A stretch of DNA of 60,657 nucleotides, filler included, from Nemertoderma westbladi (lineage: Eukaryota > Animalia > Xenacoelomorpha): assembly GCA_032718475.1 (NCBI GenBank). It is 3 parts of 3 records of this genome, joined end to end, with 100 filler letters (N's around TTAATTAATTAA, not from the genome) between each part and the next. Parts side by side here need not be neighbours in the genome. Positions count along the whole stretch, not along the records: positions 20,219 to 47,990 come from JAUCBJ010004715.1; 2 more parts are not named here. One strand, written 5' to 3'. The notes below the pieces were generated by a model that was given only the letters and a program-made list of their open reading frames with translations, had not been told where the DNA came from and made no database searches. Both the position numbers and the translations under genes were made by a program. Shown piece after piece: positions 21,436 to 49,250 of this stretch. Position 1 is the first letter of the stretch, and each line of letters opens with the position of its first letter.

Positions 21436-21498
21436 GAGTAGGTGGATCCTCGCAAGCCAGTTCGCATTGAAATTCTGGATGTTGATTCCATTTTCCGC
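21403..21498 (-). CDS. Sushi gene exon 3 (GKWNQHPEFQCELACEDPPTPPTHGLVLGAS)
   Basis: ttaacag| acceptor, cag|gtaagg donor, phase 1-1; completes Sushi 1 (W..C) and starts Sushi 2 (C..PP...HG). Confidence 0.85.
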
Positions 21499-24100: not shown

Positions 24101-24140
24101 CTAAATTAATAACAAATTAAAATAATCGTATTAATTATAT

Positions 24141-24625
24141 GGCCCATGTGAAGAATACCAGACTTTCTGCCGTTATATTTCACTTTGCAGTTACCCCCAT
24201 GTGAAGAATACCAGACTTTCTGCCGTTATATTTCACTTTGCAGTTACCCCCATGTGAAGAATACCAGACTTTCTGCCGTTATATTTCACTTTGCAGTTAC
24301 CCCCATGTGAAGAATACCAGACTTTCTGCCGTTATATTTCACTTTGCAGTTACCCCCATGTGAAGAATACCAGACTTTCTGCCGTTATATTTCACTTTGC
24401 AGTTACCCCCATGTGAAGAATACCAGGTTTTCACCAAAACCACAGGTTACAGAAGGGCTGAATCTAACCAAAACAATAAACGAATTGTACAGGTTATAAG
24501 ACAGAAATAAGCGCTATAAAACACTAATATACACACAATTAAAAAAAAAATAAAAAATCTTCATATATAAAATTCCAATAAAAAGTCGACCGAAAAGTGA
24601 AATCCTGGTATTCTTCACATGGGCG
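24141..24625. mobile_element. Non-autonomous TIR element with 8-bp TSD (Merlin-like) and tandemly amplified 56-bp left end
   Basis: ggcccatgtgaagaatacca ... tggtattcttcacatgggcg; aattatat at 24133-24140 and 24626-24633. Confidence 0.85.
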
Positions 24626-24729
24626 AATTATATCCATCGCTATTTTGTTAACAATTTTATGTACCATGCACTCAACTCAAATATTAAATGCATAACAAAA
24701 AATCGTACCCATATCACAGTATGTCTTGT

Positions 24730-24926: not shown

Positions 24927-25503
24927 GCTACTTGTAGGACTCTGGCCCAACTAACTTACCCATGGCACAGAGGGCTACTTGTAGGACTCTGGCCCAACTA
25001 ACTTACCCATGGCACAGAGGGCTACTTGTAGGACTCTGGCCCAACTAACTTACCCATGGCACAGAGGGCTACTTGTAGGACTCTGGCCCAACTAACTTAC
25101 TCATGGCACAGAGGGCTACTTGTAGGACTCTGGCCCAACTAACTTACCCATGGCACAGAGGGCTACTTGTAGGACTCTGGCCCAACTAACTTACCCATGG
25201 CACAGAGGGCTACTTGTAGGACTCTGGCCCAACTAACTTACCCATGGCACAGAGGGCTACTTGTAGGACTCTGGCCCAACTAACTTACTCATGGCACAGA
25301 GGGCTACTTGTAGGACTCTGGCCCAACTAACTTACCCATGGCACAGAGGGCTACTTGTAGGACTCTGGCCCAACTAACTTACCCATGGCACAGAGGGCTA
25401 CTTGTAGGACTCTGGCCCAACTAACTTACCCATGGCACAGAGGGCTACTTGTAGGACTCTGGCCCATCTAACTTACCCATGGCACAGAGGGCTACTTGTA
25501 GGA
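24927..25503. repeat. 47-bp tandem array, about 12 copies, of Sushi exon 1 end plus donor
   Basis: Unit reverse complement ccctctgtgccatgg|gtaagttagttgggccagagtcctacaagtag. Confidence 0.97.
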
Positions 25504-25983: not shown

Positions 25984-26643
25984 TTATTTCTATATTTTAT
26001 TCTTCCACGTGTCCACACATAACTAACATAGTGCTTTGGTTGGCCCATATTATTTCTATGTTTTATTCTTCCACGTGTCCACACATAACTAACATAGTGT
26101 CTTTGGTTGGCCCATATTATTTCTATGTTTTATTCTTCCACGTGTCCACACATAACTAACATAGTGCTTTGGTTGACCCATATTATTTCTATGTTTTATT
26201 CTTCCACGTGTCCGCTAACTAACACAGTGTGCTTTGGTTGGCCCATATTATTTCTATGTTTTATTCTTCCACGTGTCCACACATAACTAACATAGTGCTT
26301 TGGTTGACCCATATTATTTCTATGTTTTATTCTTCCACGTGTCCACACATAACTAACATAGTGCTTTGGTTGACCCATATTATTTCTATGTTTTATTCTT
26401 CCACGTGTCCACACATAACTAACACAGTGTGCTTTGGTTGACCCATATTATTTCTATGTTTTATTCTTCCACGTGTCCACACATAACTAACATAGTGCTT
26501 TGGTTGACCCATATTATTTCTATGTTTTATTCTTCCACGTGTCCACACATAACTAACATAGTGCTTTGGTTGACCCATATTATTTCTATGTTTTATTCTT
26601 CCACGTGTCCACACATAACTAACATAGTGCTTTGGTTGGCCCA
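25984..26643. repeat. ~66-bp tandem array, about 10 copies
   Basis: Unit ttttattcttccacgtgtccacacataactaacatagtgctttggttgacccatattatttctatg; reverse complement contains ctat|gttagt. Confidence 0.95.
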
Positions 26644-28622: not shown

Positions 28623-29747
28623 CTAAATGTTATCGCTCTCATCCAATACCGACGGGTTAGACATCCTCAAGGCATCTTTATTCCTCGTTAAGGTGTCATC
28701 TTTAGATGCTGCGGTGATGCTCATATGTCTGGTCAATGTACCAAACACCTTCTTTGCAGCCCCTTTCTTCTTCTTTTCAACTTCTCCTTCTACTGTCAGC
28801 GATCCCATCATGGAATCCACCGTTTTCTCCAACTCTTTGCTTCTCGGGTTGTATGCCACCTTGTGGTATTCGTTATTCAACCCCATATCGTTATCTATGA
28901 TCTCCTTTAAGTTATTCAGCAGTGTCACTGTATTAGTATCAACTTCTGCTTCTTGTATAACTATGTCTATGTTATTGAGAACAAATTTGCTATCATCCAC
29001 AGCTTTTTTCAAGTGGGTCTCCATTCCTTTAATGCGTTCATCGTACATCTGCTGTTTGTTATCAAAGAAAGCTCTCAAATCTTCGAGAATATGTTCTTTC
29101 TTAGCCCGTAGAGCCATAACTCCTTCGTTGTATTCTTGTTCAATAAGGTAACATAGACTTTCTACAATCTTCGTTTTTTCTTCTTCATTCTCAGCCCTGA
29201 ATTCTTTGACATCTCTTGTCAGACATTGCAAGGTCTCTAGACAGCGCTCCATATTGTTGGCGCATTCTCCCATACGAACAACCATCTTTAACTTATTGTG
29301 TTCTTTGTGGTTGGCCTCCACCAAACAATCACTACACAAAGCCATCTTACACGGAACACATATATACTTTAGCTGCTCATCTTTGTGGACGGGGCATCTT
29401 TCGTGAGCCTTCTCGCTGGTGGTGACCGCTACTGGAGTCTGGGAAGAGTTGCTAATCGGGCGGGAATTGTTGAGGCGATTGGAATCGATGGACCTGTTGA
29501 ATGCGGAACTCAGTGAGTCGTTGATGTCGTGGTCTGGTAGTTCGTCCAATAGGGATGCGATTGTGTTGCTGTTACATATCCTACAAGTCAGTTCGCAGTG
29601 GGTCTTGGATTCCGGGTTGTTTTGTGTGTCTCGCAGACAAGACTTACAGAATATGTGTCCGCAATCGAGAATCTTTGGGTGACGATAGACTTCTTGACAA
29701 ACTCTACATGTCAACTCTTGTATTAAGTCGCCTTTGCCTTTATCCAT
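28623..29747 (-). CDS. TRIM/RBCC E3 ubiquitin ligase (RING, B-box2, coiled coil, no C-terminal domain), intronless
   Basis: CRVC..CGHIFCKSC..CRIC RING; CPVHKDEQLKYICVPCKMALCSDC..HKEH B-box; helical C-terminal half. Confidence 0.93.
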   Translation of the reverse strand: MDKGKGDLIQELTCRVCQEVYRHPKILDCGHIFCKSCLRDTQNNPESKTHCELTCRICNSNTIASLLDELPDHDINDSLSSAFNRSIDSNRLNNSRPISNSSQTPVAVTTSEKAHERCPVHKDEQLKYICVPCKMALCSDCLVEANHKEHNKLKMVVRMGECANNMERCLETLQCLTRDVKEFRAENEEEKTKIVESLCYLIEQEYNEGVMALRAKKEHILEDLRAFFDNKQQMYDERIKGMETHLKKAVDDSKFVLNNIDIVIQEAEVDTNTVTLLNNLKEIIDNDMGLNNEYHKVAYNPRSKELEKTVDSMMGSLTVEGEVEKKKKGAAKKVFGTLTRHMSITAASKDDTLTRNKDALRMSNPSVLDESDNI

Positions 29748-30806
29748 AACTAATAATGCTGTAATGCTTCAGTAATAATTAGGCCTACTAATAATTCAAA
29801 ATTAATATTAATTAATAAATCATAGTAAAAGTATTTATTAATAAATGTTAATACGGTGATTTGTTTCAGTTTAGTACCAGCAATACAACAAAAGTAGAAA
29901 ATCTGATAGATATTCTTAGGTACAAATCAGTACAAATAGGCAGATAGACCTATTTATGGGCTAGGCCTAGAAAGGCGAGAGAGTTGTGTAGAATGTTAAA
30001 CTTAAATTATTGTACATATATATTGTACATATTGTATTGTACATATATTGTATATTTCTGATATGTAATATTAAAATGAATTCTAATATAAACAATAATA
30101 ATATCCGGAACAATCGACAAAGTGTGTTCTCATGTCGCTATATTAACCTTACCGCCCTATCCAATCAATAGTAGGGTTGTCTGGCTCTGTCAGTCCATGT
30201 AGATTCATCAGCTTATATTGATGGACTTAGTGGCAGCTCTCAGCTACATAATATACCGACATTATCAGCCCATGTTGTGAGTCTCTCTTCTCTGTCTATA
30301 GAGTTGTAGACCCATGGTGGTAGACAGTTCGGACTAGACAGCGGGAAACCAACTTGTTAGTGTGACCTGAAGGAAATATATTTCGGTAGATTTCTCTGGA
30401 GATTATTCCAACCAATTACTGTTATAGGGAGGTGAATGATTCCTATAAGCACTTGTTTTTCATTAACTTCTGTTTACTATAGTAACGGGAAGGCCTGGAT
30501 TAGTTGAATGTATAATCTGCGTTGGTTTGTCAGTGGGAAGCAGTTGTAGACATGTTTCTTTGGATACAATACTCAATAATCTATCCTTAGACTTAAACCC
30601 GGCGCACACTAGAGATACAAGATGCACGATGCATGATAAATTATTTGAAATATACATTAATATAATCAAAGTATAATATATAAAATAAAATACGATGCAT
30701 CTTGCATCTCTAGTGCCTTACTATATTATTATTATTGGGCGTAGACGCTGTGCCGACAGAGGTGCCGACCCAGGTGCGTGGATGATAGAAATAAAATAAA
30801 ATATTG

Positions 30807-30985
30807 GGCCCATGTGAAGAATGCCAGACTTTCTGCCGTTATATTTCACTTTGCAGTTACCCCCATGTGAAGAATACCAGGTTTTCACCAAAAGCACAGG
30901 TTACAGAAGGGCTGAATCTAACCAAAACAATAAACGAATTAGTTTATGTTCAGGTTAAAAGACAGAAATAAGCGCTATAAAACAC
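30807..30985 (+). mobile_element. Left-end fragment of the cccatgtgaagaatacca TIR family
   Basis: Near-identical to 24141-24525 but with a single 56-bp unit. Confidence 0.8.
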
Positions 30986-31337
30986 TTAGTAAAGATAAAT
31001 AAAAAAATCCCAGCAAGCCAAGGAAACAAGTAAATGTTTTGCCCCGTTTTGTTGCACTGTTTTGCACAGTTTTTATAAAATATTTAGCGCCGTTTGCACC
31101 ATTGTTTTGCGCCGTCTGTTCCAATAATTTTACCATTATTGGTTGTTATTATCGTTGAGTTGTTATATACCGTCCACATCCCCCCCCCCCCCCCCCCCCC
31201 CCCTCTCCAATTTATTTTTCGCTAGTGAGTTTTTTATTACGTTGACTTATAATTCATTATTATTCTATTGTAAAATCCGATTATAAATATTTTAATCAAA
31301 TTCCAAAACTTATTAATAAATCTATTTTTCTCTACAG

Positions 31338-31559
31338 GGAAGCGGTTGACTCGGCGTATCTTTACAGCAACCTAACGGCTATCCTTGATGACCTATTGGA
31401 AGGGTTTGAATCCAAGTCACCCGGAATTAAGTTGGAAACAATTCATTTCGTTAAGCGGTGCCTCCAGCGGGCAACACCGGCATCGCTAAAGAAGGACATA
31501 CTGAAACCGTTAGGGGGCGCTCTAACAAAACGCTTAGGTGAACAGCTACCAGAAATTCG
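31338..31559 (+). CDS. CKAP5: ch-TOG/XMAP215 internal exon (TOG2 HEAT repeats)
   Basis: EAVDSAY..KSPGIKLET..LKKDILKPLGGAL..QLPEIR resembles recalled CKAP5 EAIDAIF..KNPTIKQQT..LPKSLLKPF..SAPEVR; ctacag| and CG|gtgagt. Confidence 0.9.
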
Positions 31560-31677
31560 GTGAGTTTGGAAGAACAGCAACCTGAAATTTTGTAAGTTTG
31601 GAAGAACAGTAACCAGAAATAAAAATATAGTAAGATCTGATTGAGAGTGATTTGGTTATGTCGTCATTGTTTTTTAG

Positions 31678-31855
31678 TGATGCGGCATCAGAAGGCCTTG
31701 CAACTATGTGGAAAGTGATGGGAGACAAACCGATGAACCAATTCCTAAACGATCTCGATAAATTGAAGATGGATAAAATCCGAGAGTTTTATGAAACAGT
31801 GGAGCTCATTGGTAAAGGGAAACCTGGTGGGACCGTGGACGCTAAAACTACCAAG
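31678..31855 (+). CDS. CKAP5: ch-TOG internal exon (end of TOG2)
   Basis: DAASEGLATMWKVMGDKPMNQFLNDLDKLKMDKIRE; tttttag| and AAG|gtaggg; phases consistent. Confidence 0.92.
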
Positions 31856-32426
31856 GTAGGGGGACCCCTTAGTTGTCGTAAAAGCCACAGACGCCAAGAA
31901 AGTAAGACTAATTTTCTTAAAGGTGGCTTTCCCTTTTATAGGCATTTCAATTGTACACACTTGTGTCTTACTCAGTCTTACTTAGGTTTTTCAGACAGTA
32001 GCCTTGGACATAAAGACCAATACAACTTGTAAACAGAATATTTTGATCAGAAGTGTCTAAAATGTCCATTTTTTTTATTTTGGGCTGATATTTTTTTTTA
32101 ATTATCGTACATAACCGACATAGAAATTTCAAAATTCTGTCTACAGGTTTTCTTGGTCAATATATGAAGACAATTCACTGAAAGTTTCAAACAAATTTAT
32201 TACAAAATGACGGAGGAGTCGCATTTAGAGTGTCTGTTTGTCAGGAAACACATTTTAGTGGGAAAATAATGATAATTTGATATTTTGTGTAAACTTGCCA
32301 TATTAAAATTACATTATTAGGACTCGCCATTGACCCCCCCCCCCCCCCCCCCCCCCCCTTTAGTACACTTTATTTGATCTTTTTCTTTATGGAATTATTT
32401 TCTAACTATTTATTTTATTTCCTCAG

Positions 32427-32547
32427 CCAGACGCGCTTAGTAAACCGACGACTGGTGGTCCCGCCGCCGCTCCGCCTTGGAAGAAGAAATCGACAGTCCA
32501 GGGAGGTAAACCGACGGCTGGTAGTGGAGGGCAGGAAGGCAAAAAAG
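32427..32547 (+). CDS. CKAP5: ch-TOG internal exon (basic TOG2-TOG3 linker)
   Basis: cctcag|PDALSKPTTGGPAAAPPWKKK..GQEGKK G|gtgagt; phase 0-1 links the flanking exons. Confidence 0.82.
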
Positions 32548-35500
32548 GTGAGTGAGAGATCGGTAGTGGAGGGAGGTAAACCAACGGCTGGTAGTGGAGG
32601 GCAGGAAGGCAAAAAAGGTGAGTGAGAGATCGGTAGTGGAGGGCAGGAAGGCAAAAAAGGTGAGTGAGAGATCGGTAGTGGAGGGAGGTAAACCAACGGC
32701 TGGTAGTGGAGGACAGGAAGGCAAAAAAGGTGAGTGAGAGATCGGTAGTGGAGGGCAGGAAGGCAAAAAAGGTGAGTGAGAGATCGGTAGTGGAGGGGGG
32801 TAAACCAACGGCTGATAGTGGAGGGCAGGGAGGCAAAAAAGGTGAGTGAGAGATCGGTAGTGGAGGACAGGAAGGCAAAAAAGGTGAGTGAGAGATCGGT
32901 AGTGGAGGGAGGTAAACCAACGGCTGATAGTGGAGGGCAGGGAGGCAAAAAAGGTGAGTGAGAGATCGGTAGTGGAGGGCAGGAAGGCAAAAAAGGTGAG
33001 TGAGAGATCGGTAGTGGAGGGCAGGAAGGCAAAAAATGTGAGTGAGAGATCGGTAGTGGAGGGCAGGAAGGCAAAAAAGGTGAGTGAGAGATCGGTAGTG
33101 GAGGGCAGGAAGGCAAAAAAAGGTGAGTGAGAGATCGGTAGTGGAGGGGGGTAAACCAACGGCTGATAGTGGAGGGCAGGAAGGCAAAAAAGGTGAGTGA
33201 GAGATCGGTAGTGGAGGACAGGAAGGCCAAAAAGGTGAGTGAGAGATCGGTAGTGGAGGGAGGTAAACCAACGGCTGGTAGTGGAGGGCAGGAAGGCAAA
33301 AAAGGTGAGTGAGAGATCGGTAGTGGAGGGCTGGAAGGCAAAAAAGGTGAGTGAGAAATCGGTAGTGGAGGGCAGGAAGGCAAAAAAGGTGAGTGAGAGA
33401 TCGGTAGTGGAGGGAGGTAAACCAACGGCTGGTAGTGGAGGGCAGGAAGGCAAAAAAGGTGAGTGAGAGATCGGAAGTGGAGGGAGGTAAACCAACGGCT
33501 GGTAGTGGAGGGCAGGAAGGCAAAAAAGGTGAGTGAGAGATCGGTAGTGGAGGGAGGTTAACCAACGGCTGGTAGTGGAGGGCAGGAAGGCAAAAAAGGT
33601 GAGTGAGAGATCGGTAGTGGAGGGCAGGAAGGCAAAAAAGGTGAGTGAGAGATCGGTAGTGGAGGGAGGTAAACCAACGGCTGGTAGTGGAGGACAGGAA
33701 GGCAAAAAAGGTGAGTGAGAGATCGGTAGTGGAGGGCAGGAAGGCAAAAAAGGTGAGTGAGAGATCGGTAGTGGAGGGGGGTAAACCAACGGCTGATAGT
33801 GGAGGGCAGGGAGGCAAAAAAGGTGAGTGAGAGATCGGTAGTGGAGGGCAGGAAGGCAAAAAAGGTGAGTGAGAGATCGGTAGTGGAGGGCAGGAAGGCA
33901 AAAAAGGTGAGTGAGAGATCGGTAGTGGAGGGCAGGAAGGCAAAAAAGGTGAGTGAGAGATCGGTAGTGGAGGGCAGGAAGGCAAAAAAGGTGAGTGAGA
34001 GATCGGTAGTGGAGGGGGGTAAACCAACGGCTGATAGTGGAGGGCAGGAAGGCAAAAAAGGTGAGTGAGAGATCGGTAGTGGAGGACAGGAAGGCCAAAA
34101 AGGTGAGTGAGAGATCGGTAGTGGAGGGAGGTAAACCAACGGCTGGTAGTGGAGGGCAGGAAGGCAAAAAATGTGAGTGAGAGATCGGTAGTGGAGGGCT
34201 GGAAGGCAAAAAAGGTGAGTGAGAAATCGGTAGTGGAGGGCAGGAAGGCAAAAAAGGTGAGTGAGAGATCGGTAGTGGAGGGAGGTAAACCAACGGCTGG
34301 TAGTGGAGGGCAGGAAGGCAAAAAAGGTGAGTGAGAGATCGGTAGTGGAGGGCAGGAAGGCAAAAAAGGTGAGTGAGAGATCGGTAGTGGAGGGCAGGAA
34401 GGCAACAAAGGTGAGTGAGAGATCGGTAGTGGAGGTTAGGAAGGCCAAAAAAGGTGAGTGAGAGATCGGTAGTGGAGGGCAGGAAGGAAAAAGGTGAGTG
34501 AGAGATCGGTAGTGGAGGGCAGGAAGGCAACAAAGGTGAGTGAGAGATCGGTAGTGGAGGTTAGGAAGGGCAAAAAAGGTGAGTGAGAGATCGGTAGTGG
34601 AGGGCAGGAAGGCAAAAAAGGTGAGTGAGAGATCGGTAGTGGAGGGCAGGAAGGCAAAAAAAGGTGAGTGAGAGATCGGTAGTGGAGGGCAGGAAGGCAA
34701 AAAAGGTGAGTGAGAGATCGGTAGTGGAGGGCAGGAAGGCAAAAAAGGTGAGTGAGAGATCGGTAGTGGAGGGAGGTAAACCAACGGTTGGTAGTGGAGG
34801 GCAGGAAGGCAAAAAAGGTGAGTGAGAGATCGGTAGTGGAGGACAGGAAGGCAAAAAAGGTGAGTGAGAGATCGGTAGTGGAGGGAGGTAAACCAACGGC
34901 TGGTAGTGGAGGGCAGGAAGGCAAAAAAGGTGAGTGAGAGATCGGTAGTGGAGGACAGGAAGGCAAAAAAGGTGAGTGAGAGATCGGTAGTGGAGGGAGG
35001 TAAACCAACGGCTGGTAGTGGAGGACAGGAAGGCCAAAAAGGTGAGTGAGAGATCGGTATAGTGGAGGGAGGTAAACCAACGGCTGGTAGTGGAGGGCAG
35101 GAAGGCAAAAAAGGTGAGTGAGAGATCGGTAGTGGAGGGCAGGAAGGCAACAAAGGTGAGTGAGAGATCGGTAGTGGAGGGCAGGAAGGCAAAAAAGGTG
35201 AGTGAGAGATCGGTAGTGGAGGGCAGGAAGGCAACAAAGGTGAGTGAGAGATCGGTAGTGGAGGGCAGGAAGGCAAAAAAGGTGAGTGAGAGATCGGTAG
35301 TGGAGGGCAGGAAGGCAACAAAGGTGAGTGAGAGATCGGTAGTGGAGGGCAGGAAGGCAAAAAAAGGTGAGTGAGAGATCGGTAGTGGAGGGAGGTAAAC
35401 CAACGGCTGGTAGTGGAGGGCTGGAAGGCAAAAAAGGTGAGTGAGAGATCGGTAGTGGAGGGCAGGAAGGCAAAAAAGGTGAGTGAGAGATCGGTAGTGG

Positions 35501-38500
35501 AGGGCAGGAAGGCAAAAAATGTGAGTGAGAGATCGGTAGTGGAGGGAGGTAAACCAACGGCTGGTAGTGGAGGGCAGGAAGGCAAAAAAGGTGAGTGAGA
35601 GATCGGAAGTGGAGGGCAGGAAGGCAAAAAAGGTGAGTGAGAGATCGGTAGTGGAGGAAGGTAAACCAACGGCTGGTAGTGGAGGGCAGGAAGGCAAAAA
35701 AGGTGAGTGAGAGATCGGTAGTGGGGGGCAGGAAGGCAAAAAAGGTGAGTGAGAGATCGGTAGTGGAGGGCAGGAAGGCAAAAAAGGTGAGTGAGAGATC
35801 GGTAGTGGGGGGCAGGAAGGCAAAAAAGGTGAGTGAGAGATCGGTAGTGGAGGAAGGTAAACCAACGGCTGGTAGTGGAGGGCAGGAAGGCAAAAAAGGT
35901 GAGTGAGCGATCGGTAGTGGAGGAAGGTAAACCAACGGCTGGTAGTGGGGGGCAGGAAGGCAAAAAAGGTGAGTGAGAGATCGGTAGTGGAGGGCAGGAA
36001 GGCAAAAAAGGTGAGTGAGAGATCGGTAGTGGGGGGCAGGAAGGCAAAAAAGGTGAGTGAGAGATCGGTAGTGGAGGGAGGTAAACCAACGGCTGGTAGT
36101 GGAGGGCAGGAAGGCAAAAAAGGTGAGTGAGAGATCGGTAGTGGGGGGCAGGAAGGCAAAAAAGGTGAGTGAGAGATCGGTAGTGGGGGGCAGGAAGGCA
36201 AAAAAGGTGAGTGAGAGATCGGTAGTGGAGGGCAGGAAGGCAAAAAAGGTGAGTGAGAGATCGGTAGTGGGGGGCAGGAAGGCAAAAAAGGTGAGTGAGA
36301 GATCGGTAGTGGAGGGAGGTAAACCAACGGCTGGTAGTGGAGGGCAGGAAGGCAAAAAAGGTGAGTGAGAGATCGGTAGTGGGGGGCAGGAAGGCAAAAA
36401 AGGTGAGTGAGAGATCGGTAGTGGAGGGCAGGAAGGCAAAAAAGGTGAGTGAGAGATCGGTAGTGGAGGGAGGTAAACCAACGGCTGGTAGTGGAGGCCA
36501 GGAAGGCAAAAAAGGTGAGTGAGAGATCGGTAGTGGAGGGAGGTAAACCAACGGCTGGTAGTGGCGGGCAGGAAGGCAAAAAAGGTGAGTGAGAGATCGG
36601 TAGTGGAGGGAGGTAAACCAACGGCTGGTAGTGGAGGGCTGGAAGGCAAAAAAGGTGAGTGAGAGATCGGTAGTGGAGGGAGGTAAACCAACGGCTGGTA
36701 GTGGAGGGCTGGAAGGCAAAAAAGGTGAGTGAGAGATCGGTAGTGGAGGGCAGGAAGGCAAAAAAGGTGAGTGAGAGATCGGTAGTGGAGGGAGGTAAAC
36801 CAACGGCTGGTAGTGGAGGGCTGGAAGGCAAAAAAGGTGAGTGAGAGATCGGTAGTGGAGGGCAGGAAGGCAAAAAAGGTGAGTGAGAGATCGGTAGTGG
36901 AGGGCAGGAAGGCAAAAAAGGTGAGTGAGAGATCGGTAGTGGAGGGAGGTAAACCAACGGCTGGTAGTGGAGGCCAGGAAGGCAAAAAAGGTGAGTGAGA
37001 GATCGGTAGTGGAGGGAGGTAAACCAACGGCTGGTAGTGGAGGGCTGGAAGGCAAAAAAGGTGAGTGAGAGATCGGTAGTGGAGGGCAGGAAGGCAAAAA
37101 AGGTGAGTGAGAGATCGGTAGTGGAGGGCAGGAAGGCAAAAAAGGTGAGTGAGAGATCGGTAGTGGAGGGCAGGAAGGCAAAAAAGGTGAGTGAGAGATC
37201 GGTAGTGGAGGGAGGTAAACCAACGGCTGGTAGTGGAGGGCAGGAAGGCCTAAAAGGTGAGTGACAGATCGGTAGTGGAGGGCAGGAAGGCAAAAAAGGT
37301 GAGTGAGAGATCAGTAGTGGAGGGCAGGAAGGCAAAAAAGGTGAGTGAGAGATCGGTAGTGGAGGGAGGTAAACCAACGGCTGGTAGTGGAGGGCAGGAA
37401 GGCCAAAAAGGTGAGTGACAGATCGGTAGTGGAGGGCAGGAAGGCAAAAAAGGTGAGTGAGAGATCAGTAGTGGAGGGCAGGAAGGCAAAAAAAGTGAGT
37501 GAGAGATCGGTAGTAGAGGGAGGTAAACCAACGGCTGGTAGTGGCGGGCAGGAAGGCAAAAAAGGTGAGTGAGAGATCGGTAGTGGAGGGCAGGAAGGCA
37601 AAAAAGGTGAGTGAGAGATCGGTAGTGGATGGAGGTAAACCAACGGCTGGTAGTGGAGGGCTGGAATGCAAAAAAGGTGAGTGAGAGATCGGTAGTGGAG
37701 GGCAGGAAGGCAAAAAAAGTGAGTGAGAGATCGGTAGTAGAGGGAGGTAAACCAACGGCTGGTAGTGGAGGGCTGGAAGGCAAAAAAGGTGAGTGAGAGA
37801 TCGGTAGTGGAGGGCAGGAAGGCAAAAAAGGTGAGTGAGAGATCGGTAGTGGAGGGAGGTAAACCAACGGCTGGTAGTGGAGGGCAGGAAGGCAAAAAAG
37901 GTGAGTGAGAGATCGGTAGTGGAGGGCAGGAAGGCAAAAAAGGTGAGTGAGAGATCGGTAGTGGATGGAGGTAAACCAACGGCTGGTAGTGGAGGGCTGG
38001 AATGCAAAAAAGGTGAGTGAGAGATCGGTAGTGGAGGACAGGAAGGCAACAAAGGTGAGTGAGAGATCGGTAGTGGAGGGCAGGAAGGCAAAAAGGTGAG
38101 TGAGAGATCGGTAGTGGAGGGCAGGAAGGCAAAAAAGGTGAGTGAGAGATCGGTAGTGGAGGGAGGTAAACCAACGGCTGGTAGTGGAGGGCAGGAAGGC
38201 AAAAAAGGTGAGTGAGAGATCGGTAGTGGAGGGCAGGAAGGCAAAAAAGGTGAGTGAGAGATCGGTAGTGGAGGGAGGTAAACCAACGGCTGGTAGTGGA
38301 GGGCTGGAAGGCAAAAAAGGTGAGTGAGAGATCAGTAGTGGAGGGCAGGAAGGCAAAAAAAGTGAGTGAGAGATCGGTAGTAGAGGGAGGTAAACCAACG
38401 GCTGGTAGTGGAGGGCTGGAAGGCAAAAAAGGTGAGTGAGAGATCGGTAGTGGAGGGCAGGAAGGCAAAAAAGGTGAGTGAGAGATCGGTAGTGGAGGGA

Positions 38501-39642
38501 GGTAAACCAACGGCTGGTAGTGGAGGGCAGGAAGGCAAAAAAGGTGAGTGAGAGATCGGTAGTGGAGGGCAGGAAGGCAACAAAGGTGAGTGAGAGATCG
38601 GTAGTGGAGGGAGGTAAACCAACGGCTGGTAGTGGAGGGCTGGAAGGCAAAAAAGGTGAGTGAGAGATCAGTAGTGGAGGGCAGGAAGGCAAAAAAGGTG
38701 AGTGAGAGATCGGTAGTGGAGGGCAGGAAGGCAAAAAAGGTGAGTGAGAGATCGGTAGTGGAGGGAGGTAAACCAACGGCTGGTAGTGGAGGGCTGGAAG
38801 GCAAAAAAGGTGAGTGAGAGATCAGTAGTGGAGGGCAGGAAGGCAAAAAAAGTGAGTGAGAGATCGGTAGTAGAGGGAGGTAAACCAACGGCTGGTAGTG
38901 GAGGGCTGGAAGGCAAAAAAGGTGAGTGAGAGATCGGTAGTGGAGGGCAGGAAGGCAAAAAAGGTGAGTGAGAGATCGGTAGTGGAGGGAGGTAAACCAA
39001 CGGCTGGTAGTGGAGGGCAGGAAGGCAAAAAAGGTGAGTGAGAGATCGGTAGTGGAGGGCAGGAAGGCAAAAAAGGTGAGTGAGAGATCGGTAGTGGATG
39101 GAGGTAAACCAACGGCTGGTAGTGGAGGGCTGGAATGCAAAAAAGGTGAGTGAGAGATCGGTAGTGGAGGACAGGAAGGCAACAAAGGTGAGTGAGAGAT
39201 CGGTAGTGGAGGGCAGGAAGGCAAAAAGGTGAGTGAGAGATCGGTAGTGGAGGGCAGGAAGGCAAAAAAGGTGAGTGAGAGATCGGTAGTGGAGGGAGGT
39301 AAACCAACGGCTGGTAGTGGAGGGCAGGAAGGCAAAAAAGGTGAGTGAGAGATCGGTAGTGGAGGGCAGGAAGGCAAAAAAGGTGAGTGAGAGATCGGTA
39401 GTGGAGGGAGGTAAACCAACGGCTGGTAGTGGAGGGCTGGAAGGCAAAAAAGGTGAGTGAGAGATCGGTAGTGGGGGGGCAGGAAGGCAAAAAAGGTGAG
39501 TGAGAGATCGGTAGTGGGGGGCAGGAAGGCAAAAAAGGTGAGTGAGAGATCGGTAGTGGAGGGCAGGAAGGCAAAAAAGGTGAGTGAGAGATCGGTAGTG
39601 GAGGGCAGGAAGGCAAAAAGGTGAGTGAGAGATCGGTAGTGG
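32500..39642. repeat. 7.1-kb array of 42-bp and 28-bp units derived from the ch-TOG exon end plus donor
   Basis: Units ggtagtggagggcaggaaggcaaaaaag|gtgagtgagagatc and ggtagtggagggaggtaaaccaacggct. Confidence 0.98.
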
Positions 39643-39743
39643 TAGAAGTAGATCGATAACACATTTGATGTGATATAATCATATAGGGGTCGTTGTAAGA
39701 TCCGCTTCTTTCTGTTTAAAGAAAATTATTATATTAATTTTAG

Positions 39744-39925
39744 TTAAAGATAAGAAAGTTTCTAAGCCGAAAGAGACGAAACAACCAGTGGGGCCGCCAT
39801 CCGAGAGACAACTTGCATACGAGGAAGCGGTTGAGATCGTCAAGGAAACCTTGGGGGAGAAAACAATGGGCCAATTAGAGAACGCCACGTGGAAGGAAAG
39901 ATTGGAGGCGACAGAGTTCATACAG
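39744..39925 (+). CDS. CKAP5: ch-TOG internal exon (start of TOG3)
   Basis: LENATWKERLEA matches the TOG first-HEAT WKERL motif; ttttag| and CAG|gttgtt; phase 1-0. Confidence 0.9.
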
Positions 39926-40037
39926 GTTGTTAGATGTTCTAGAATGATAAAAATTCAAATAACCCTAGTTTATTTGGTCCAATCTAAATAACTCATGTTT
40001 TACTTTATCTTATTGTTTAACTGCTTTATTCTTCTAG

Positions 40038-40251
40038 AATTACATCTCATCGGCTGAACCCAACTCTGTTCCAATGCAAGCCGTACTGCTGGCCATGGCA
40101 GGAAAGAAATCCGATTGGAGAGAAAATAACTTCCAGGTCTTAATGGCTAAATTCAAGATCGTCGCCCAATTGGCTACCCATTGTAAGGTAACCATTCAAT
40201 CAGCTGAAGTCGCCATGTCTGGATTGGTTGACAAACTCGGTGACGCCAAAG
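40038..40251 (+). CDS. CKAP5: ch-TOG internal exon (TOG3)
   Basis: KKSDWRENNFQV..K..IV, GLVDKLGDAK; ttctag| and AAAG|gttcgt. Confidence 0.92.
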
Positions 40252-41924
40252 GTTCGTCTGTAACATCATTGAAATTCCGACCCACACAACTCCGAACCAA
40301 AACAATCATAAGGAATCAACAACCAAAATGACTTTTGCAGGGGAAATATATTTATAAATACAATTTAGGATCAATGAAACTTGGGGGGGGGGGTCTTACT
40401 CTGCAAACATAATGTAAAACTAAAACACGTAAATAAACCGCACGAAAAATGTTCAATGTATAATCGTGAACTCGTCAGGGCCTGGGCCCAACAACACCAC
40501 CCCACCACCTCTCCAAATACACTCTCACACCTATAAACTACCTCTTATATATTTAACCTAACCAAACCAAATAAACTAAATGATACCATTATTGTAAACT
40601 TTTAACTACAACCTATATTTATTAGAAAAGTATGACATTTGTCAGCCGCATAAAGGGAAGTACTAGTTAGCGGAAGAAAAATAATCAATTTATAAAAAAA
40701 ATCTGGGTGTGTCTCGATAGCCTGAGACCAGTACGCGCTAATCTCTGGCTATATTTCATCAGCTGGACTGGAAATTAGCCAAGAATATGATTAGAAAACT
40801 TTTCTAGAATCCTGGAGTCGTAAGTTGTCTGTCTGTACAGGCCAACCTCATTACTTTCGTTACCGGTACTCAATATATGCGGAGAAGTTAACAAATTTAC
40901 TCTATAAAATTATTTTAGTTAGATTTAGTTGGAGATTAATAATGATATCTTATTATAATTTCATATCATTTGTTAAACACAAGTTACTGTCAATCAATAA
41001 TCCGTAAATTTAATTAGTTTTAAATGATTTCTTGTGGCTCTAAATCACATTAAATCGTCATTATTTGTAGGTTGAGATTATTAAACCTGTAAGCGATTCA
41101 TTGTTTCTGACTGATGGTGATGTCGAATTATGCGGGGCGATTCATGTATATGACGGAGCCTCTTAAAAATGCAATAATCACTACACAATTATTCCCTTTT
41201 TCCCCTTCTCCCACCGTAATATTTCTCTCTAAATATATCCAATATCCCGATGTATTTCCACCCCAGACATCCTTAGCCGGCCTCACCCACAATATCTAAC
41301 CAATATTGCCGGCTACTCCCCCATGAATCATTCCAATCCAATAAAGGAGGCAACCACACAACCTCCTTCCTTTCTCTCATTGGCCCTCAACACGCCAACC
41401 TCACCTAACTATCACCCTCACCCAGTTACCCAGTTGTTAGCAAAGGAATAATTGGTCACCTTCAAAACTCTATTGTCTTTCCTTAATAATTGATTATTGG
41501 TCAGTCAATCATACAATGTGTTAATCATATTTTACATGGGTTGAACGTAAAATCTCTGCACTAGAAAGACAAACTCTGTTTAGGTGATAATTAGGGGTCA
41601 ACTTCATATCGACCCGACACCGGGTTTAAAAAGGGCCGTATTTGGGTTGAGAAGTGAGTCCCAACAACCAGCCTAACAGTACGCCGCCTCGGCAGCTAAA
41701 CTGGATTCTGCTCCAAGTTAGAGGGCGTCTTTGTTCCTGGGCCGTGCCCTAATAAGGCTTCGCGGTCGCTAGGAGCTTAAGACGATTCCGCCTAAGGACT
41801 GAGCTTCACTGGCTACTTAGTTCGTCCCAGGACCAACTATTTAGTTTTGGGGGCAAAGTAGCAGTGTCCCTATAGGCTTAGACTCTGTCAGTTACGGTAG
41901 TGCTTGTGCACTTTGTAACTCTGT

Positions 41925-44900
41925 GTGGTATGATCGATCTCTGTGTTCTTCTATTTATAGGCGTCCCCTGCCCAATCTGCACTCACTGCTCTAGAGGTAT
42001 GATCGATCTCTGTGTTCTTCCATTTATAGGCGCCCCCGGCCCAATCAGCACTCACTGCTCTAGAGATATGATCGATCTCTGTGTTCTTCCATTTATAGGC
42101 GTCCCCCGGCCCAATATGCACTCACTGCTCTAGAGGTATGATCGATCTCTGTGTTCTTCCATTTATAGGCGCCCCCCTGCCCAATCTGCACTCACTGCTC
42201 TAGAGGTATGATCGATCTCTGTGTTCTTCCATTTATAGGCGTCCCCCTGCCCAATCGGCACTCACTGCTCTAGAGGTATGATCGATCTCTGTGTTCTTCC
42301 ATTTATAGGCGTCCCCCGGCCCAATATGCACTCACTGCTCTAGAGGTATGATAGATCTCTGTGATCTTCCATTTATAGGCGTCCCCCGGCCCAATCTGCA
42401 CTCATTGCCCTAGAGATATGATCGATCTCTGTGTTCTTCCATTTATAGGCGCCCCCCTGCCCAATCTGCACTCACTGCCCTAGGTATGATCGATCTGTGT
42501 TCTTCCATTTATAGGTGGCCCCCCGGCCCAATATGCACTCACTGCTCTAGAGGTATGATCGATCTCTGTGTTCTTCCATTTATAGGCGTCCCCCGGCCCA
42601 ATCTGCACTCACTGCCCTAGGTATGATCGATCTGTGTTCTTCCATTTATAGGCGTCCCCCGGCCCAATCTGCACTCATTGCCCTAGAGATATGATCGATC
42701 TCTGTGTTCTTCCAATTATAGGCGCCCCCCTGCCCAATCTGCACTCACTGCCCTAGGTATGATCGATCTGTGTTCTTCCATTTATAGGTGGCCCCCCGGC
42801 CCAATATGCACTCACTGCTCTAGAGGTATGATCGATCTCTGTGATCTTCCATTTATAGGCGTCCCCCTGCCCAATCTGCACTCACTGCCCTAGGTATGAT
42901 CGATCTCTGTGTTCTTCCATTTATAGGCGCCCCCCTGCCCAATCTGCACTCACTGCTCTAGAGGTATGATCGATCTGTGTTCTTCCATTTATAGGTGGCC
43001 CCCCGGCCCAATATGCACTCACTGCTCTAGAGGTATGATAGATCTCTGTGATCTTCCATTTATAGGCGTCCCCTACCCAATCGGCACTCACTGCTCTAGA
43101 GATATGATCGATCTCTGTGTTCTTCCATTTATAGGCGCCCCCCTGCCCAATCTGCACTCACTGCCCTAGGTATGATCGATCTCTGTGTTCTTCCATTTAT
43201 AGGCGTCCCCCTGCCCAATCTGCACTCACTGCTCTAGAGGTATGATCGATCTCTGTGTTCTTCCATTTATAGGCGCCCCCCTGCCCAATCTGCACTCACT
43301 GCCCTAGGTATGATCGATCTGTGTTCTTCCATTTATAGGTGGCCCCCCGGCCCAATATGCACTCACTGCTCTAGAGGTATGATAGATCTCTGTGATCTTC
43401 CATTTATAGGCGTCCCCCGGCCCAATCTGCACTCACTGCTCTAGAGGTATGATAGATCTCTGTGTTCTTCCATTTATAGGCGCCCCCCTGGCCAATCTGC
43501 ACTCACTGCTCTAGAGGTATGATCGATCTCTGTGATCTTCCATTTATAGGCGCCCCCCTGCCCAATCTGCACTCACTGCTCTAGAGGTATGATAGATCTC
43601 TGTGATCTTCCATTTATAGGCGTCCCCTACCCAATCGGCACTCACTGCTCTAGAGGTATGATCGATCTCTGTGTTCTTCCATTTATAGGCGCCCCCGGCA
43701 CAATCTGCACTCACTGCTCTAGAGGTATGATCGATCTCTGTGTTCTTCCATTTATAGGCGTCCCCCTGCCCAATCTGCACTCACTGCCCTAGGTATGATC
43801 GATCTGTGTTCTTCCATTTATAGGCGCCCCTCTGCCCAATCTGCACTCACTGCTCTAGAGGTATGATCGATCTCTGTGTTCTTCCATTTATAGGCGCCCC
43901 CCTGCCCAATCTGCACTCACTGCTCTAGAGGTATGATCGATCTCTGTGTTCTTCCATTTATAGGCGCCCCCCTGCCCAATCTGCACTCACTGCTCTAGAG
44001 GTATGATCGATCTCTGTGTTCTTCCATTTATAGGCGCCCCCCTGCCCAATCGGCACTCACTGCTCTAGAGGTATGATCGATCTCTGTGTTCTTCCATTTA
44101 TAGGCGCCCCCGGCACAATCTGCACTCACTGCTCTAGAGGTATGATCGATCTCTGTGTTCTTCCATTTATAGGCGTCCCCCTGCCCAATCTGCACTCACT
44201 GCCCTAGGTATGATCGATCTGTGTTCTTCCATTTATAGGCGCCCCTCTGCCCAATCTGCACTCACTGCTCTAGAGGTATGATCGATCTCTGTGTTCTTCC
44301 ATTTATAGGCGCCCCCCTGCCCAATCTGCACTCACTGCTCTAGAGGTATGATCGATCTCTGTGTTCTTCCATTTATAGGCGCCCCCCTGCCCAATCTGCA
44401 CTCACTGCTCTAGAGGTATGATCGATCTCTGTGTTCTTCCATTTATAGGCGCCCCCCTGCCCAATCTGCACTCACTGCTCTAGAGGTATGATCGATCTCT
44501 GTGTTCTTCCATTTATAGGCGCCCCCCTGCCCAATCTGCACTCACTGCTCTAGAGGTATGATCGATCTCTGTGTTCTTCCATTTATAGGCGCCCCCCTGC
44601 CCAATCTGCACTCACTGCTCTAGAGGTATGATCGATCTCTGTGTTCTTCCATTTATAGGCGCCCCCCTGCCCAATCTGCACTCACTGCTCTAGAGGTATG
44701 ATCGATCTCTGTGATCTTCCATTTATAGGCGCCCCCCTGCCCAATCTGCACTTACTGCTCTAGAGGTATGATCGATCTCTGTGTTCTTCCATTTATAGGC
44801 GTCCCCCTGCCCAATCTGCACTCACTGCTCTAGAGGTATGATCGATCTCTGTGATCTTCCATTTATAGGCGCCCCCCTGCCCAATCTGCACTCACTGCTC

Positions 44901-47900
44901 TAGAGGTATGATCGATCTCTGTGATCTTCCATTTATAGGCGCCCCCCTGCCCAATCTGCACTCACTGCTCTAGAGGTATGATCGATCTCTGTGTTCTTCC
45001 ATTTATAGGCGTCCCCTACCCAATCTGCACTCACTGCTCTAGAGGTATGATCGATCTCTGTGATCTTCCATTTATAGGCGCCCCCCTGCCCAATCTGCAC
45101 TCACTGCTCTAGAGGTATGATCGATCTCTGTGTTCTTCCATTTATAGGCGTCCCCTACCCAATCTGCACTCACTGCTCTAGAGGTATGATCGATCTCTGT
45201 GTTCTTCCATTTATAGGCGTCCCCTACCCAATCTGCACTCACTGCTCTAGAGGTATGATCGATCTCTGTGTTCTTCCATTTATAGGCGTCCCCTACCCAA
45301 TCTGCACTCACTGCTCTAGAGGTATGATCGATCTCTGTGTTCTTCCATTTATAGGCGTCCCCTACCCAATCTGCACTCACTGCTCTAGAGGTATGATCGA
45401 TCTCTGTGTTCTTCCATTTATAGGCGTCCCCTACCCAATCTGCACTCACTGCTCTAGAGGTATGATCGATCTCTGTGTTCTTCCATTTATAGGCGTCCCC
45501 TACCCAATCTGCACTCACTGCTCTAGAGGTATGATCGATCTCTGTGTTCTTCCATTTATAGGCGTCCCCTACCCAATCTGCACTCACTGCTCTAGAGGTA
45601 TGATCGATCTCTGTGATCTTCCATTTATAGGCGCCCCTCTGCCCAATCTGCACTCACTGCTCTAGAGGTATGATCGATCTCTGTGATCTTCCATTTATAG
45701 GCGCCCCTCTGCCCAATCTGCACTCACTGCTCTAGAGGTATGATAGATCTCTGTGTTCTTCCATTTTTAGGCGTCCCCCTGCCCAATCTGCACTCACTGC
45801 TCTAGAGGTATGATCGATCTCTGTGATCTTCCATTTATAGGCGCCCCCCTGCCCAATCTGCACTCACTGCTCTAGAGGTATGATCGATCTCTCTGTTCTT
45901 CCATTTATAAGCGTCCCCCTGCCCAATCTGCACTCACTGCTCTAGGTATGATCGATCTGTGTTCTTCCATTTATAGGTGGCCCCCCGGCCCAATATGCAC
46001 TCACTGCTCTAGAGGTATGATAGATCTCTGTGATCTTCCATTTATAGGCGTCCCCTACCCAATCGGCACTCACTGCTCTAGAGGTATGATCGATCTCTGT
46101 GTTCTTCCATTTATAGGCGTCCCCCGGCCCAATATGCACTCACTGCTCTAGAGGTATGATCGATCTCTGTGTTCTTCCATTTATAGGCGCCCCCCTGCCC
46201 AATCTGCACTCACTGCTCTAGAGGTATGATCGATCTCTGTGTTCTTCCATTTATAGGCGTCCCCCTGCCCAATCTGCACTCACTGCTCTAGAGGTATGAT
46301 CGATCTCTGTGTTCTTCCATTTATAGGCGCCCCCCTGCCCAATCTGCACTCACTGCTCTAGAGGTATGATCGATCTCTGTGTTCTTCCATTTATAGGCGT
46401 CCCCCGGCCCAATATGCACTCGCTGCTCTAGAGGTATGATAGATCTCTGTGTTCTTCCATTTATAGGCGTCCCCCTGGCCAATCTGCACTCACTGCTCTA
46501 GAGGTATGATCGATCTCTGTGTTCTTCCATTTATAGGCGACCCCTGCCCAATCTGCACTCACTGCCCTAGGTATGATCGATCTCTGTGTTCTTCCATTTA
46601 TAGGTGGCCCCCGGCCCAATCTGCACTCACTGCTCTAGAGGTATGATCGATCTCTGTGTTCTTCCATTTATAGGCGTCCCCCGGCCCAATCTGCACTTAC
46701 TGCCCTAGGTATGATCGATCTGTGTTCTTCCATTTATAGGTGGCCCCCCGGCCCAATCTGCACTCACTGCTCTAGAGGTATGATAGATCTCTGTGATCTT
46801 CCATTTATAGGCGTCCCCCGGCCCAATCTGCACTCACTGCTCTAGAGGTATGATCGATCTCTGTGTTCTTCCATTTATAGGCGCCCCCCTGCCCAATCTG
46901 CACTCACTGCTCTAGAGGTATGATCGATCTCTGTGTTCTTCCATTTATAGGCGTCCCCCGGCCCAATATGCACTCACTGCTCTAGAGGTATGATAGATCT
47001 CTGTGATCTTCCATTTATAGGCGTCCCCCGGCCCAATATGCACTCACTGCTCTAGAGGTATGATAGATCTCTGTGATCTTCCATTTATAGGCGCCCCCCT
47101 GCCCAATCTGCACTCACTGCTCTAGAGGTATGATCGATCTCTGTGTTCTTCCATTTATAGGCGTCCCCCGGCCCAATATGCACTCACTGCTCTAGAGGTA
47201 TGATAGATCTCTGTGATCTTCCATTTATAGGCGTCCCCCGGCCCAATATGCACTCACTGCTCTAGAGGTATGATAGATCTCTGTGATCTTCCATTTATAG
47301 GCGTCCCCTGCCCAATCTGCACTCACTGCTCTAGAGGTATGATCGATCTCTGTGATCTTCCATTTATAGGCGCCCCCTGCCCAATCTGCACTCACTGCTC
47401 TAGAGGTATGATCACTGCTCTAGAGGTATGATCGATCTCTGTGTTCTTCCATTTATAGGCGTCCCCGGCCCAATCTGCACTCACTGCTCTAGAGGTATGA
47501 TCGATCTCTGTGTTCTTCCATTTATAAGCGTCCCCCTGCCCAATCTGCACTCACTGCTCTAGAGGTATGATCGATCTCTGTGATCTTCCATTTATAGGCG
47601 CCCCCTGCCCAATCTGCACTCACTGCTCTAGAGGTATGATCACTGCTCCTAGAGGTATGATCGATCTCTGTGATCTTCCATTTATAGGCGCCCCCCCTGC
47701 CCAATCTGCACTCACTGCTCTAGAGGTATGATCGATCTCTGTGTTCTTCCATTTATAGGCGCCCCCGGCACAATCTGCACTCACTGCTCTAGAGGTATGA
47801 TAGATCTCTGTGTTCTTCCATTTATAGGCGCCCCCGGCACAATCTGCACTCACTGCTCTAGAGGTATGATCGATCTCTGTGTTCTTCCATTTATAAACGT

Positions 47901-47990
47901 CCCCCGGCCCAATCTGCACTCACTGCTCTAGAGGTATGATAGATCTCTGTGTTCCCATTTATAGGTGGCCCCCCTGCCCAATCAGCACTC
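41925..47990. repeat. ~60-bp array, about 100 copies, derived from the acceptor plus 5' end of the next ch-TOG exon
   Basis: Unit tgttcttccatttatag|gcgcccccctgcccaatctgcactcactgctctagaggtatgatcgatctctg. Confidence 0.97.
47965..47990 (+). CDS. CKAP5: Probable start of the next ch-TOG exon, truncated by the gap
   Basis: tttatag|GT GGC CCC CCT GCC CAA TCA GCA CTC gives DAK-GGPPAQSAL(TAL), in register with recalled CKAP5 DVKCGNNAKEAMTAI; phase 1 fits. Confidence 0.65.
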
Positions 47991-48090
47991 NNNNNNNNNN
48001 NNNNNNNNNNNNNNNNNNNNNNNNNNNNNNNNNNTTAATTAATTAANNNNNNNNNNNNNNNNNNNNNNNNNNNNNNNNNNNNNNNNNNNN
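47991..48090. other. Scaffold gap with TTAATTAATTAA linker
   Basis: N runs with an artificial spacer. Confidence 0.98.

Positions 48091-49250
<1,160 letters not shown>

What the first reader, a model, noticed from the sequence alone, without database searches (positions are those of the whole stretch)
32427..39743. A ch-TOG intron almost entirely made of copies of its own donor
About 7.1 of 7.2 kb is 42-bp (AAG|gtgagt-containing) and 28-bp exon-derived units, giving more than 100 consensus donors with purine-rich, enhancer-like exon sequence in a normally essential spindle gene. Only ~100 bp of unique intron remains, similar to the neighbouring ~110-120 bp introns, implying a small ancestral intron. 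Any later donor gives GGT GAG TGA (stop). Microhomology ggtagtgg occurs in the exon and at the array exit. Variant blocks recur, indicating multi-unit duplications.
Basis: partly seen in the sequence, partly recalled or inferred. Interest (0 to 1): 0.8.

Follow-up and report, generated by a model that had tools for sequence, protein, structure and literature searches.

The report
Splice-donor minisatellite in ch-TOG intron
Almost all of a 7.2-kb intron in an animal's spindle gene (ch-TOG) is 135 tandem copies of the exon end and its splice signal; a spliced piece, likely RNA from another individual, uses the first copy, so this is likely a tolerated, unstable repeat of a kind already known from human and lancelet genes.

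Summary
Observation confirmed. Intron 32548-39743 of a CKAP5/ch-TOG gene is 98% tandem array with 135 extra GTGAGT donors; reading past the first donor meets a stop two codons later. The true units are 42 and 70 bp, because the 28-bp piece never repeats on its own. Contigs of public runs support a real array of tens of copies. One run yields spliced contigs (its kind is only guessed; likely RNA, another sample, array length unknown) that join the FIRST donor to the next exon. Both choices give the shortest exon, as exon definition predicts; nonsense-mediated decay could hide errors. This is a large member of a known class: human F7, CBS and ABCA7 VNTRs (ABCA7 reaches about 427 units) and amphioxus 'mirages'. 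This scan has noted the class before on other DNA (18 donor-array notes in at least 11 genomes). No sign of function for the array. Interest 0.3.

The parts
31338..31559 (+). ch-TOG exon E1 (first exon seen in the window), TOG2 C-terminal half
   Evidence: PDB 2qk2_A hit E 1e-9; tblastn with CKAP5 homologues; X4 contig lies 31335-31558
31540..31620 (+). Decayed 32-bp x 2.5 repeat spanning the E1 end and its donor; one unit shorter in sample S2
   Evidence: TRF; unit alignment; joint 31562->31595 skipping 32 in X2 and X3
31678..31855 (+). Exon E2
   Evidence: X4 bin depths fit exon-only cover
32427..32547 (+). Exon E3, TOG2-TOG3 linker; source of the array units; carries CCG where 50 of 50 B copies carry CCA
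   Evidence: X4 406-nt contig lies 32425-32547
32548..32553 (+). Authentic (first) donor, AAG|GTGAGT
   Evidence: X4 contig leaves the genome at 32547 and resumes in E4
32562..39634 (+). Donor-spanning minisatellite: 135 A and 50 B pieces, i.e. 42-bp and 70-bp units; 135 decoy donors; 44% G, 34% A
   Evidence: unit contig at depth 507.6 in X1, 394.3 in X2, 67.8 in X3
39635..39743 (+). Array exit and unique 3' part of intron 3 with the only pyrimidine-backed acceptor of the intron; sample S2 has 146 other letters in place of 20 here
   Evidence: X1 contig 39594-40400 without difference; X2/X3 joint 39637->39658
39744..39925 (+). Exon E4, start of TOG3
   Evidence: X4 contig 39742-39923
40038..40251 (+). 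Exon E5, TOG3
   Evidence: PDB 4y5j_A hit E 1.5e-4; X4 joint 39923->40036 GT..AG
41927..47964 (+). Acceptor-spanning minisatellite of intron 5 (about 70-bp unit: 33 nt of intron end plus 34-38 nt of exon start ending in a weak donor-like site); 84 decoy copies before the used one
47965..47990 (+). Start of exon E6, the last acceptor copy; cut by the N gap at 47991
   Evidence: only 1 of 85 copies equals the X4 loose end behind E5; extends the alignment to CKAP5

Best explanation
The array is a splice-donor-spanning minisatellite ('mirage', F7-type VNTR) that likely grew from a short tandem duplication of the exon 3 end plus the first 14-22 intron bases by slippage and unequal exchange, and is likely tolerated because splicing picks the donor nearest across the exon, with nonsense-mediated decay predicted to remove any message that uses a later copy. 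Shown: the unit anatomy, the stop codon behind the first donor, block-wise recurrence of variants, a spliced contig joining the first donor to exon 4, and the mirror case in intron 5 where the last acceptor is joined. Inferred: the order of events (a 42-bp and a 70-bp duplication sharing a G-rich 12-bp repeat), exon definition or co-transcriptional commitment as the choosing step, decay of mis-spliced RNA, and neutrality of array length.
For: Unit = exon end + donor + intron start, polarity fixed. Variants cluster by region and a 601-bp block recurs, as turnover by unequal exchange predicts. X4's 406-nt contig lies on 32425-32547 and on 39742-39923 and 40036-40116; its loose end equals 32490-32519, a 30-mer found once in the window, so the first donor is joined. 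X4's 382-nt contig goes from E5 into the only matching copy of 85 in the acceptor array, the last. First donor plus last acceptor are the sites closest across the exon, the exon-definition pattern of PMC9225289. The gene copy is under purifying selection: 10 of 11 exon differences between samples are synonymous, P 3e-6. The intron-1 donor repeat differs by one unit between samples. Same anatomy and outcome in F7, LMNB2, PDGF, ABCA7 and amphioxus. No internal acceptor in the donor array; no selection signal on decoy donors (GTGAGT invariant, -1 G changed in 7 of 135; 18 distinct variants over 42 columns, about 6% chance of missing those 6 columns by my hand calculation).
Against: The spliced contigs come from one run of a different sample whose array length is unknown and whose kind is only guessed ('DNA?'); contigs drop rare forms and show steady state only, so splice choice and decay cannot be separated. 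The last decoy donor would give a 123-nt intron, the size of 2 of 4 neighbours, so intron definition predicts the opposite choice; PMC9225289 is mammalian data and this animal's splicing mode is untested. In intron 5, 19 of 81 decoy units could form 36-nt, stop-free, frame-keeping exons that decay would not remove. In ABCA7, array length does change splicing, so neutrality is not a given. No DNA contig bridged the left junction of the array, and no long reads were available.
Confidence: 0.8

Rival explanations
1. The array is a length-tuned dial: more decoy donors send more pre-mRNA into unproductive splicing, exon skipping or slower processing, and so set ch-TOG dosage, as the ABCA7 VNTR alters exon 19 skipping.
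For: ABCA7 precedent (passages). Every later donor puts a stop at 32553-32555 upstream of further junctions. Depth ratios differ between samples (34-98 in X1; 9-15 and about 3 in X2 and X3), which hints at length alleles. Decoy GTGAGT is invariant.
Against: The one spliced form seen is the normal one. Invariance is not significant. The same repeat type sits at other junctions of this gene and probably of three other genes in the window, which fits a mutational habit better than a gene-specific device. X2 and X3 are one sample yet differ 3-5-fold, so depth is noisy.
Confidence: 0.1
2. Splicing is not selective here: decoy donors (above all the last, by intron definition) are used often, and decay alone leaves the correct mRNA, at a real cost in output.
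For: Last decoy donor lies 123 nt from the acceptor; all decoys have the same U1 match as the first, and predicted openness is alike (0.69 for the first; 0.68-0.77 for 12 sampled decoys). CBS, 6-16 and ABCA7 use the second or third site at some level.
Against: F7 minigene work found only the most upstream site used, also where later sites gave no stop. The stop-free pseudo-exons of intron 5 are absent from the major contig. The last decoy was the least open of 14 sites folded (0.51; one value, weak).
Confidence: 0.06
3. The array length is an assembly artefact (over-expanded repeat), or this gene piece is a dead partial duplicate.
For: Both N gaps of the window lie at arrays. Only residues 384-701 of about 2000 are in the window; no other ch-TOG exon was found by tblastn with 13 homologues or by a profile. 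No DNA contig joined the TRIM gene region to E1.
Against: X1 unit contig depth is 34-98 times the flanks, and the window predicts 68. 27 A and 9 B variants in non-random blocks. 10 of 11 exon differences synonymous. Spliced contigs run on 422 nt upstream of E1 and 243 nt downstream of E5. One contig per DNA run on each exon stretch, so no second close copy was seen.
Confidence: 0.04

Closest known systems
Human F7 intron 7 37-bp VNTR and the cases its introduction lists: 6-16 gene intron 2 (25 pseudo-sites), CBS intron 13, LMNB2, PDGF intron 4 (PMC1557585; read: abstract, introduction, discussion)
   Same: First unit spans the exon-intron border; identical decoy donors follow; the most upstream site is the one used.
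   Different: 135 decoys against 4-25; two interleaved unit lengths; the array is 98% of the intron; non-mammalian animal; no minigene test here.
Human ABCA7 intron 18 25-bp VNTR (PMC5954066; read: passages)
   Same: Donor-containing unit, kilobase-scale alleles, a stop and decay if a later donor is used.
   Different: ABCA7 alleles reach 10,678 bp, about 427 units, longer than this array; its unit starts at the GT, whereas here 28-48 nt of coding exon are copied; a length effect on splicing is measured there and untested here.
Amphioxus 'mirages' in Adh3, globins BflGb6/BflGb9, troponin C, PGBD5 (PMC3087553 and PMC3902484; read: passages. The original Adh3 paper, PMC117041, was not held and is known to me only through these)
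   Same: Tandem copies of both 5' and 3' exon borders, several per gene or genome, length differences between haplotypes, normal mRNA.
   Different: Copy numbers in the passages read are 2-7; here 135 donors and 85 acceptors in one gene. Somatic instability not testable here.
Intron gain by tandem duplication of an AG/GT site (Rogers model, as summarised in PMC3087553 passages)
   Same: The unit holds AG|GT.
   Different: The copies have no pyrimidine tract, and the intron keeps its own unique acceptor: an existing intron was lengthened, not created.

Membership tests
Splice-site-spanning minisatellite (mirage / F7-type VNTR) | Tandem unit made of exon end, splice site and adjoining intron | tested here: met
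   28 or 48 nt of exon 3, donor, 14 or 22 nt behind it
Splice-site-spanning minisatellite (mirage / F7-type VNTR) | Unit length in the reported range (10-160 bp in PMC3087553 passages) | tested here: met
   42 and 70 bp
Splice-site-spanning minisatellite (mirage / F7-type VNTR) | The exon-proximal (authentic) site is the one used and the mRNA is normal | tested here: met
   one spliced contig of run X4 for the donor array and one for the acceptor array; other sample, array length there unknown
Splice-site-spanning minisatellite (mirage / F7-type VNTR) | Copy number differs between alleles | tested here: inconclusive
   shown for the intron-1 repeat; for the large array only depth ratios and a different exit in sample S2
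Splice-site-spanning minisatellite (mirage / F7-type VNTR) | Turnover by block duplication and homogenisation, border copies set apart | tested here: met
   601-bp repeated block, regional variants; the exon copy alone has CCG, 50 of 50 B copies CCA
Splice-site-spanning minisatellite (mirage / F7-type VNTR) | Somatic instability (amphioxus Adh3) or low-level use of the second and third site (CBS, 6-16, ABCA7) | not testable with these tools
   only assembled contigs were served; they drop rare forms
Intron created by duplication of an AG/GT site (Rogers model) | The acceptor in use is a copy of the duplicated AG|GT | tested here: not met
   acceptor 39743 lies in unique sequence behind the array
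Recursive-splicing ladder | Internal AG|GT sites with a pyrimidine tract | tested here: not met
   of the YAG sites in 32548-39743 (312 inside the array) only 39743 has 7 or more pyrimidines in the 12 bases before it
CKAP5 / ch-TOG / XMAP215 | Colinear TOG2-linker-TOG3 sequence matching full-length CKAP5 | tested here: met
   37% over residues 384-701 of a hemichordate CKAP5, E 1.5e-52; homologue carries PF21041
CKAP5 / ch-TOG / XMAP215 | Complete multi-TOG gene | tested here: inconclusive
   other exons are not in the window; spliced contigs run on at both ends; no whole genome held

The most novel reading that the evidence does not exclude
This animal's genome has a junction-seeking amplification habit (three RNA-supported and up to five sequence-inferred splice-site arrays in 60 kb), and its spliceosome, in a gene with 110-120-bp introns, still finds the one correct donor among 136 and the one correct acceptor among 82 by strict cross-exon pairing, while array length tunes ch-TOG dose through decay. 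The locus would then be a natural, allele-graded test of exon against intron definition in a short-intron animal.
Probability: 0.1. Interest if true: 0.65.

Novelty: new member of a known kind. Interest (0 to 1): 0.3.

Why it matters
As a kind of object it is known, and a human allele is longer. Its residual value is as test material. One conserved gene carries 135 identical decoy donors, the last of which frames an ordinary 123-nt intron, and 84 decoy acceptors, 19 of which could form frame-keeping mini-exons. With RNA from an array-bearing animal this would separate exon definition, first-come commitment and decay. It also explains why this assembly breaks: both gaps in the window lie at such arrays.

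Tried and rejected
No whole genome is held, so enrichment of arrays at splice sites could not be counted genome-wide. No RNA holder listed; I infer that X4 is RNA only from its laid contigs. X4 showed no contig of array units; a hole proves nothing, and its allele may be short. X1-X3 gave no cover on 32416-32512 and no bridge between the TRIM gene and E1; not used as evidence. Reads were laid on the two flanks only, so no single record spans the array. Word-based homologue search with exon E1 found none at E 0.001 among 103 candidates; Pfam on single exons gave no TOG hit. The cardiolipin-synthase search gave a best hit of 40% (octocoral) and CKAP5 37% (hemichordate): the animal lineage is not resolved. 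Pfam and the Atlas did not identify the exons beside the 80-bp and 41-bp arrays. Motif-versus-shuffle tests on 15 array units were significant only for the 42-bp unit (p<0.001), the 80-bp unit as donor (0.038) and the 23-bp unit as acceptor (0.041); the RNA-supported 32-bp and 70-bp units scored 0.146 and 0.143, so the test is weak. RNA folding does not single out the first donor. No three-tier G-quadruplex motif in the array (0 G3 motifs). The branch-point offsets printed were wrong and are not used. Rejected: recursive splicing, Rogers-type intron birth, a coding role of the long minus-strand frames inside the array (a by-product of the repeat, not tested further). Papers opened and not used: PMC2812944 (outline only), bioRxiv 10.1101/2022.03.26.485930 (passages). 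No supplements were opened; the amphioxus globin supplements may hold further copy numbers. Paper searches listed no report of a donor array and an acceptor array of this size in one gene, but the library lacks most subscription papers.
Full report
What is there. The window is three contigs joined by N gaps at 20119-20218 and 47991-48090; the 15 arrays I summed make up 44% of it. On the + strand, five exons between 31338 and 40251 join through GT-AG introns of 118, 571, 7196 and 112 bp into one open frame. Exon E1 matches PDB chain 2qk2_A (named LP04448p; that this is fly Msps TOG2 is recalled) at E 1e-9, and exon E5 matches Mini spindles TOG3 at E 1.5e-4. The spliced model aligns to residues 384-701 of a hemichordate CKAP5 at 37%, E 1.5e-52. 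No other ch-TOG exon was found in the window with 13 homologues or a profile of them, so the rest of the gene lies outside it. The host is an animal whose lineage I could not fix.

The array. From 32562 to 39634 the intron parses into 135 A pieces and 50 B pieces, 7073 of 7196 bp. A is the last 28 nt of exon 3, the donor and 14 nt of intron. B is the 28 exon bases before that. B never follows B (0 of 184 pairs; 13.2 expected), so the working units are 42 bp and 70 bp. There are 135 decoy GTGAGT sites, 128 of them with the full AAG in front. Reading on past the first donor meets TGA at 32553-32555, so every later donor gives a premature stop. Variants are regional and a 16-unit, 601-bp block recurs (longest in 300 shuffles: 8 units), the mark of multi-unit unequal exchange. 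All 50 B copies differ from the exon copy at one silent base. Removing the array leaves 123 bp, which I take as the likely earlier intron (inference).

Is it real? Six runs were listed, four holding part of the stretch, from three studies. X1 is identical to the window on both flanks and may be its source, so it tests the assembly but is not independent; one X1 contig covers the last unit and the exit without difference. Its 72-nt unit contig has depth 507.6 against 14.8 and 5.2 for the flanks, a ratio of 34-98; the window predicts 68. The tool warns that depth is no copy number, so this supports tens of copies, not 135. Sample S2 (X2, X3) also has tandem A units (joint 32561 back to 32520) at ratios of 9-15 and about 3, and a different exit: 146 letters in place of 20, a net 126 bp that equals three units, letters unseen.

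Which donor is used? Run X4 is labelled 'DNA?' by guess, but its contigs cover exons only and join them: a GT..AG joint over intron 4, and bin depths that fit exon-only cover to two decimals. I read it as RNA (inference; a processed copy would also reflect a spliced message). Its 406-nt contig lies on 32425-32547 and on E4 and E5. The tool placed its upstream part on the last decoy because exon 3 was not in that stretch, but the loose end equals 32490-32519, a 30-mer present once in the window. The first donor is therefore joined to 39744. Limits: one contig, another sample, unknown array length there, steady-state RNA, rare forms dropped.

X4's 382-nt contig leaves E5 and continues with letters of the 70-bp array at 41927-47990. 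That array holds 85 acceptor-like copies, 82 with AG; only the last, at 47965 just before the gap, equals the contig, and it extends the protein alignment. Intron 5 is thus a mirror image: intron end plus exon start, last copy used. Most decoy acceptors lead to a stop within 11-14 codons, but each unit also ends in a weak donor-like site, and 19 of 81 could form 36-nt stop-free exons; the contig includes none. Intron 1 has a decayed 32-bp donor repeat that is one unit shorter in sample S2. The gene copy is alive: 10 of the 11 exon substitutions listed are synonymous, P 3e-6.

How it likely works. Origin: a short duplication across the junction, then slippage and unequal exchange; copies that fall on the intron side of the used site cost nothing in protein, which fixes the polarity (donor arrays run downstream, acceptor arrays upstream). 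Splicing: first donor and last acceptor are the sites closest across their exons. PMC9225289 (abstract and one results section) reports that preference under exon definition and the opposite one under intron definition, in mammalian data. A plain 5'-to-3' scan, as proposed for F7, explains the donor but not the acceptor. The last decoy donor would frame a 123-nt intron, so pure intron definition predicts the wrong choice. Decay of stop-bearing forms may hide errors; this is untested. I put 0.8 on the tolerated-minisatellite reading, 0.1 on a dosage dial, 0.06 on frequent mis-splicing masked by decay, 0.04 on artefact or dead copy.

Comparison with what is known. PMC1557585 describes the class for F7, 6-16, CBS, LMNB2 and PDGF. 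ABCA7 has a donor-containing VNTR of up to 10,678 bp, about 427 units, with use of the second donor, decay, and a length effect on exon skipping. Amphioxus 'mirages' duplicate both 5' and 3' borders without disturbing the mRNA. The features I could test are met; allele length variation of the large array is inconclusive. This scan's notes list 18 donor-array findings in at least 11 genomes, acceptor arrays with last-copy use and genes with both; I did not check those notes, and none matches this sequence.

Verdict. A real, large, new member of a known kind. The size is not a record. What stands out is the pairing of a 135-copy donor array and an 85-copy acceptor array in one conserved gene with otherwise short introns, and the density of such arrays in this window. 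Interest 0.3.

Noticed in passing
window 20219-21498 and 15157-20116, minus strand: A 96-nt exon (21498-21403) is followed by 15 visible copies of its donor (80-bp unit); across the N gap lies a 41-bp array of 123 units, 74 with CAG and 49 that have lost it, whose last copy (15229) opens a short frame. Likely one intron amplified at both ends; gene not identified.
   Followed up: partly
window 24927-25503, minus strand: 47-bp x 12 array spanning the end of a 345-nt exon (25821-25477) and a G|GTAAGT donor; joining the first donor to an acceptor at 24101 keeps the frame into a cysteine-rich, CCP/Sushi-like stretch (label recalled) that soon meets a stop.
   Followed up: partly
window 25984-26643, minus strand: 66-bp x 10 array at the end of an open frame, each unit with a weak donor-like TAT|GTTAGT; may be another donor array.
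   Followed up: partly
window 8093-8163, minus strand: 23-bp x 3 repeat of a pyrimidine-rich acceptor plus exon start; the first copy has lost its AG; a donor follows 38 nt behind the last copy.
   Followed up: partly
window 21982-23142, minus strand: Intronless CDP-alcohol phosphatidyltransferase (cardiolipin-synthase-like, PF01066 E 3e-24) with an in-frame 39-bp x 5 repeat in its N-terminal part.
   Followed up: partly
window 28623-29747, minus strand: Intronless RING-B-box-coiled-coil (TRIM-like) gene 1.6 kb upstream of ch-TOG exon E1; it would lie inside a long ch-TOG intron, or the assembly is misjoined there.
   Followed up: partly
window 30770-31057 and 24143-24640: Very high-copy short element (summed depth over 250,000 in X1), itself with a 53-bp internal unit that is tandemly repeated at 24143-24426.
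   Followed up: no
window 5750-6840, 49940-50760, 52390-52915: Broken pieces of a non-LTR retrotransposon reverse-transcriptase region, judged by eye; (ACG)n runs at 48947-49173, 49816-49868 and 52917-52966 share flanks.
   Followed up: no
window 1665-5713: 4-kb satellite of 19- and 28-bp subunits, interrupted at about 2260-2490 by an element with inverted ends and an internal 21-bp repeat.
   Followed up: no
window 32506: Exon 3 holds an internal donor-like site (GAG|GTAAAC), copied in every B piece; the spliced contig reads through it.
   Followed up: partly
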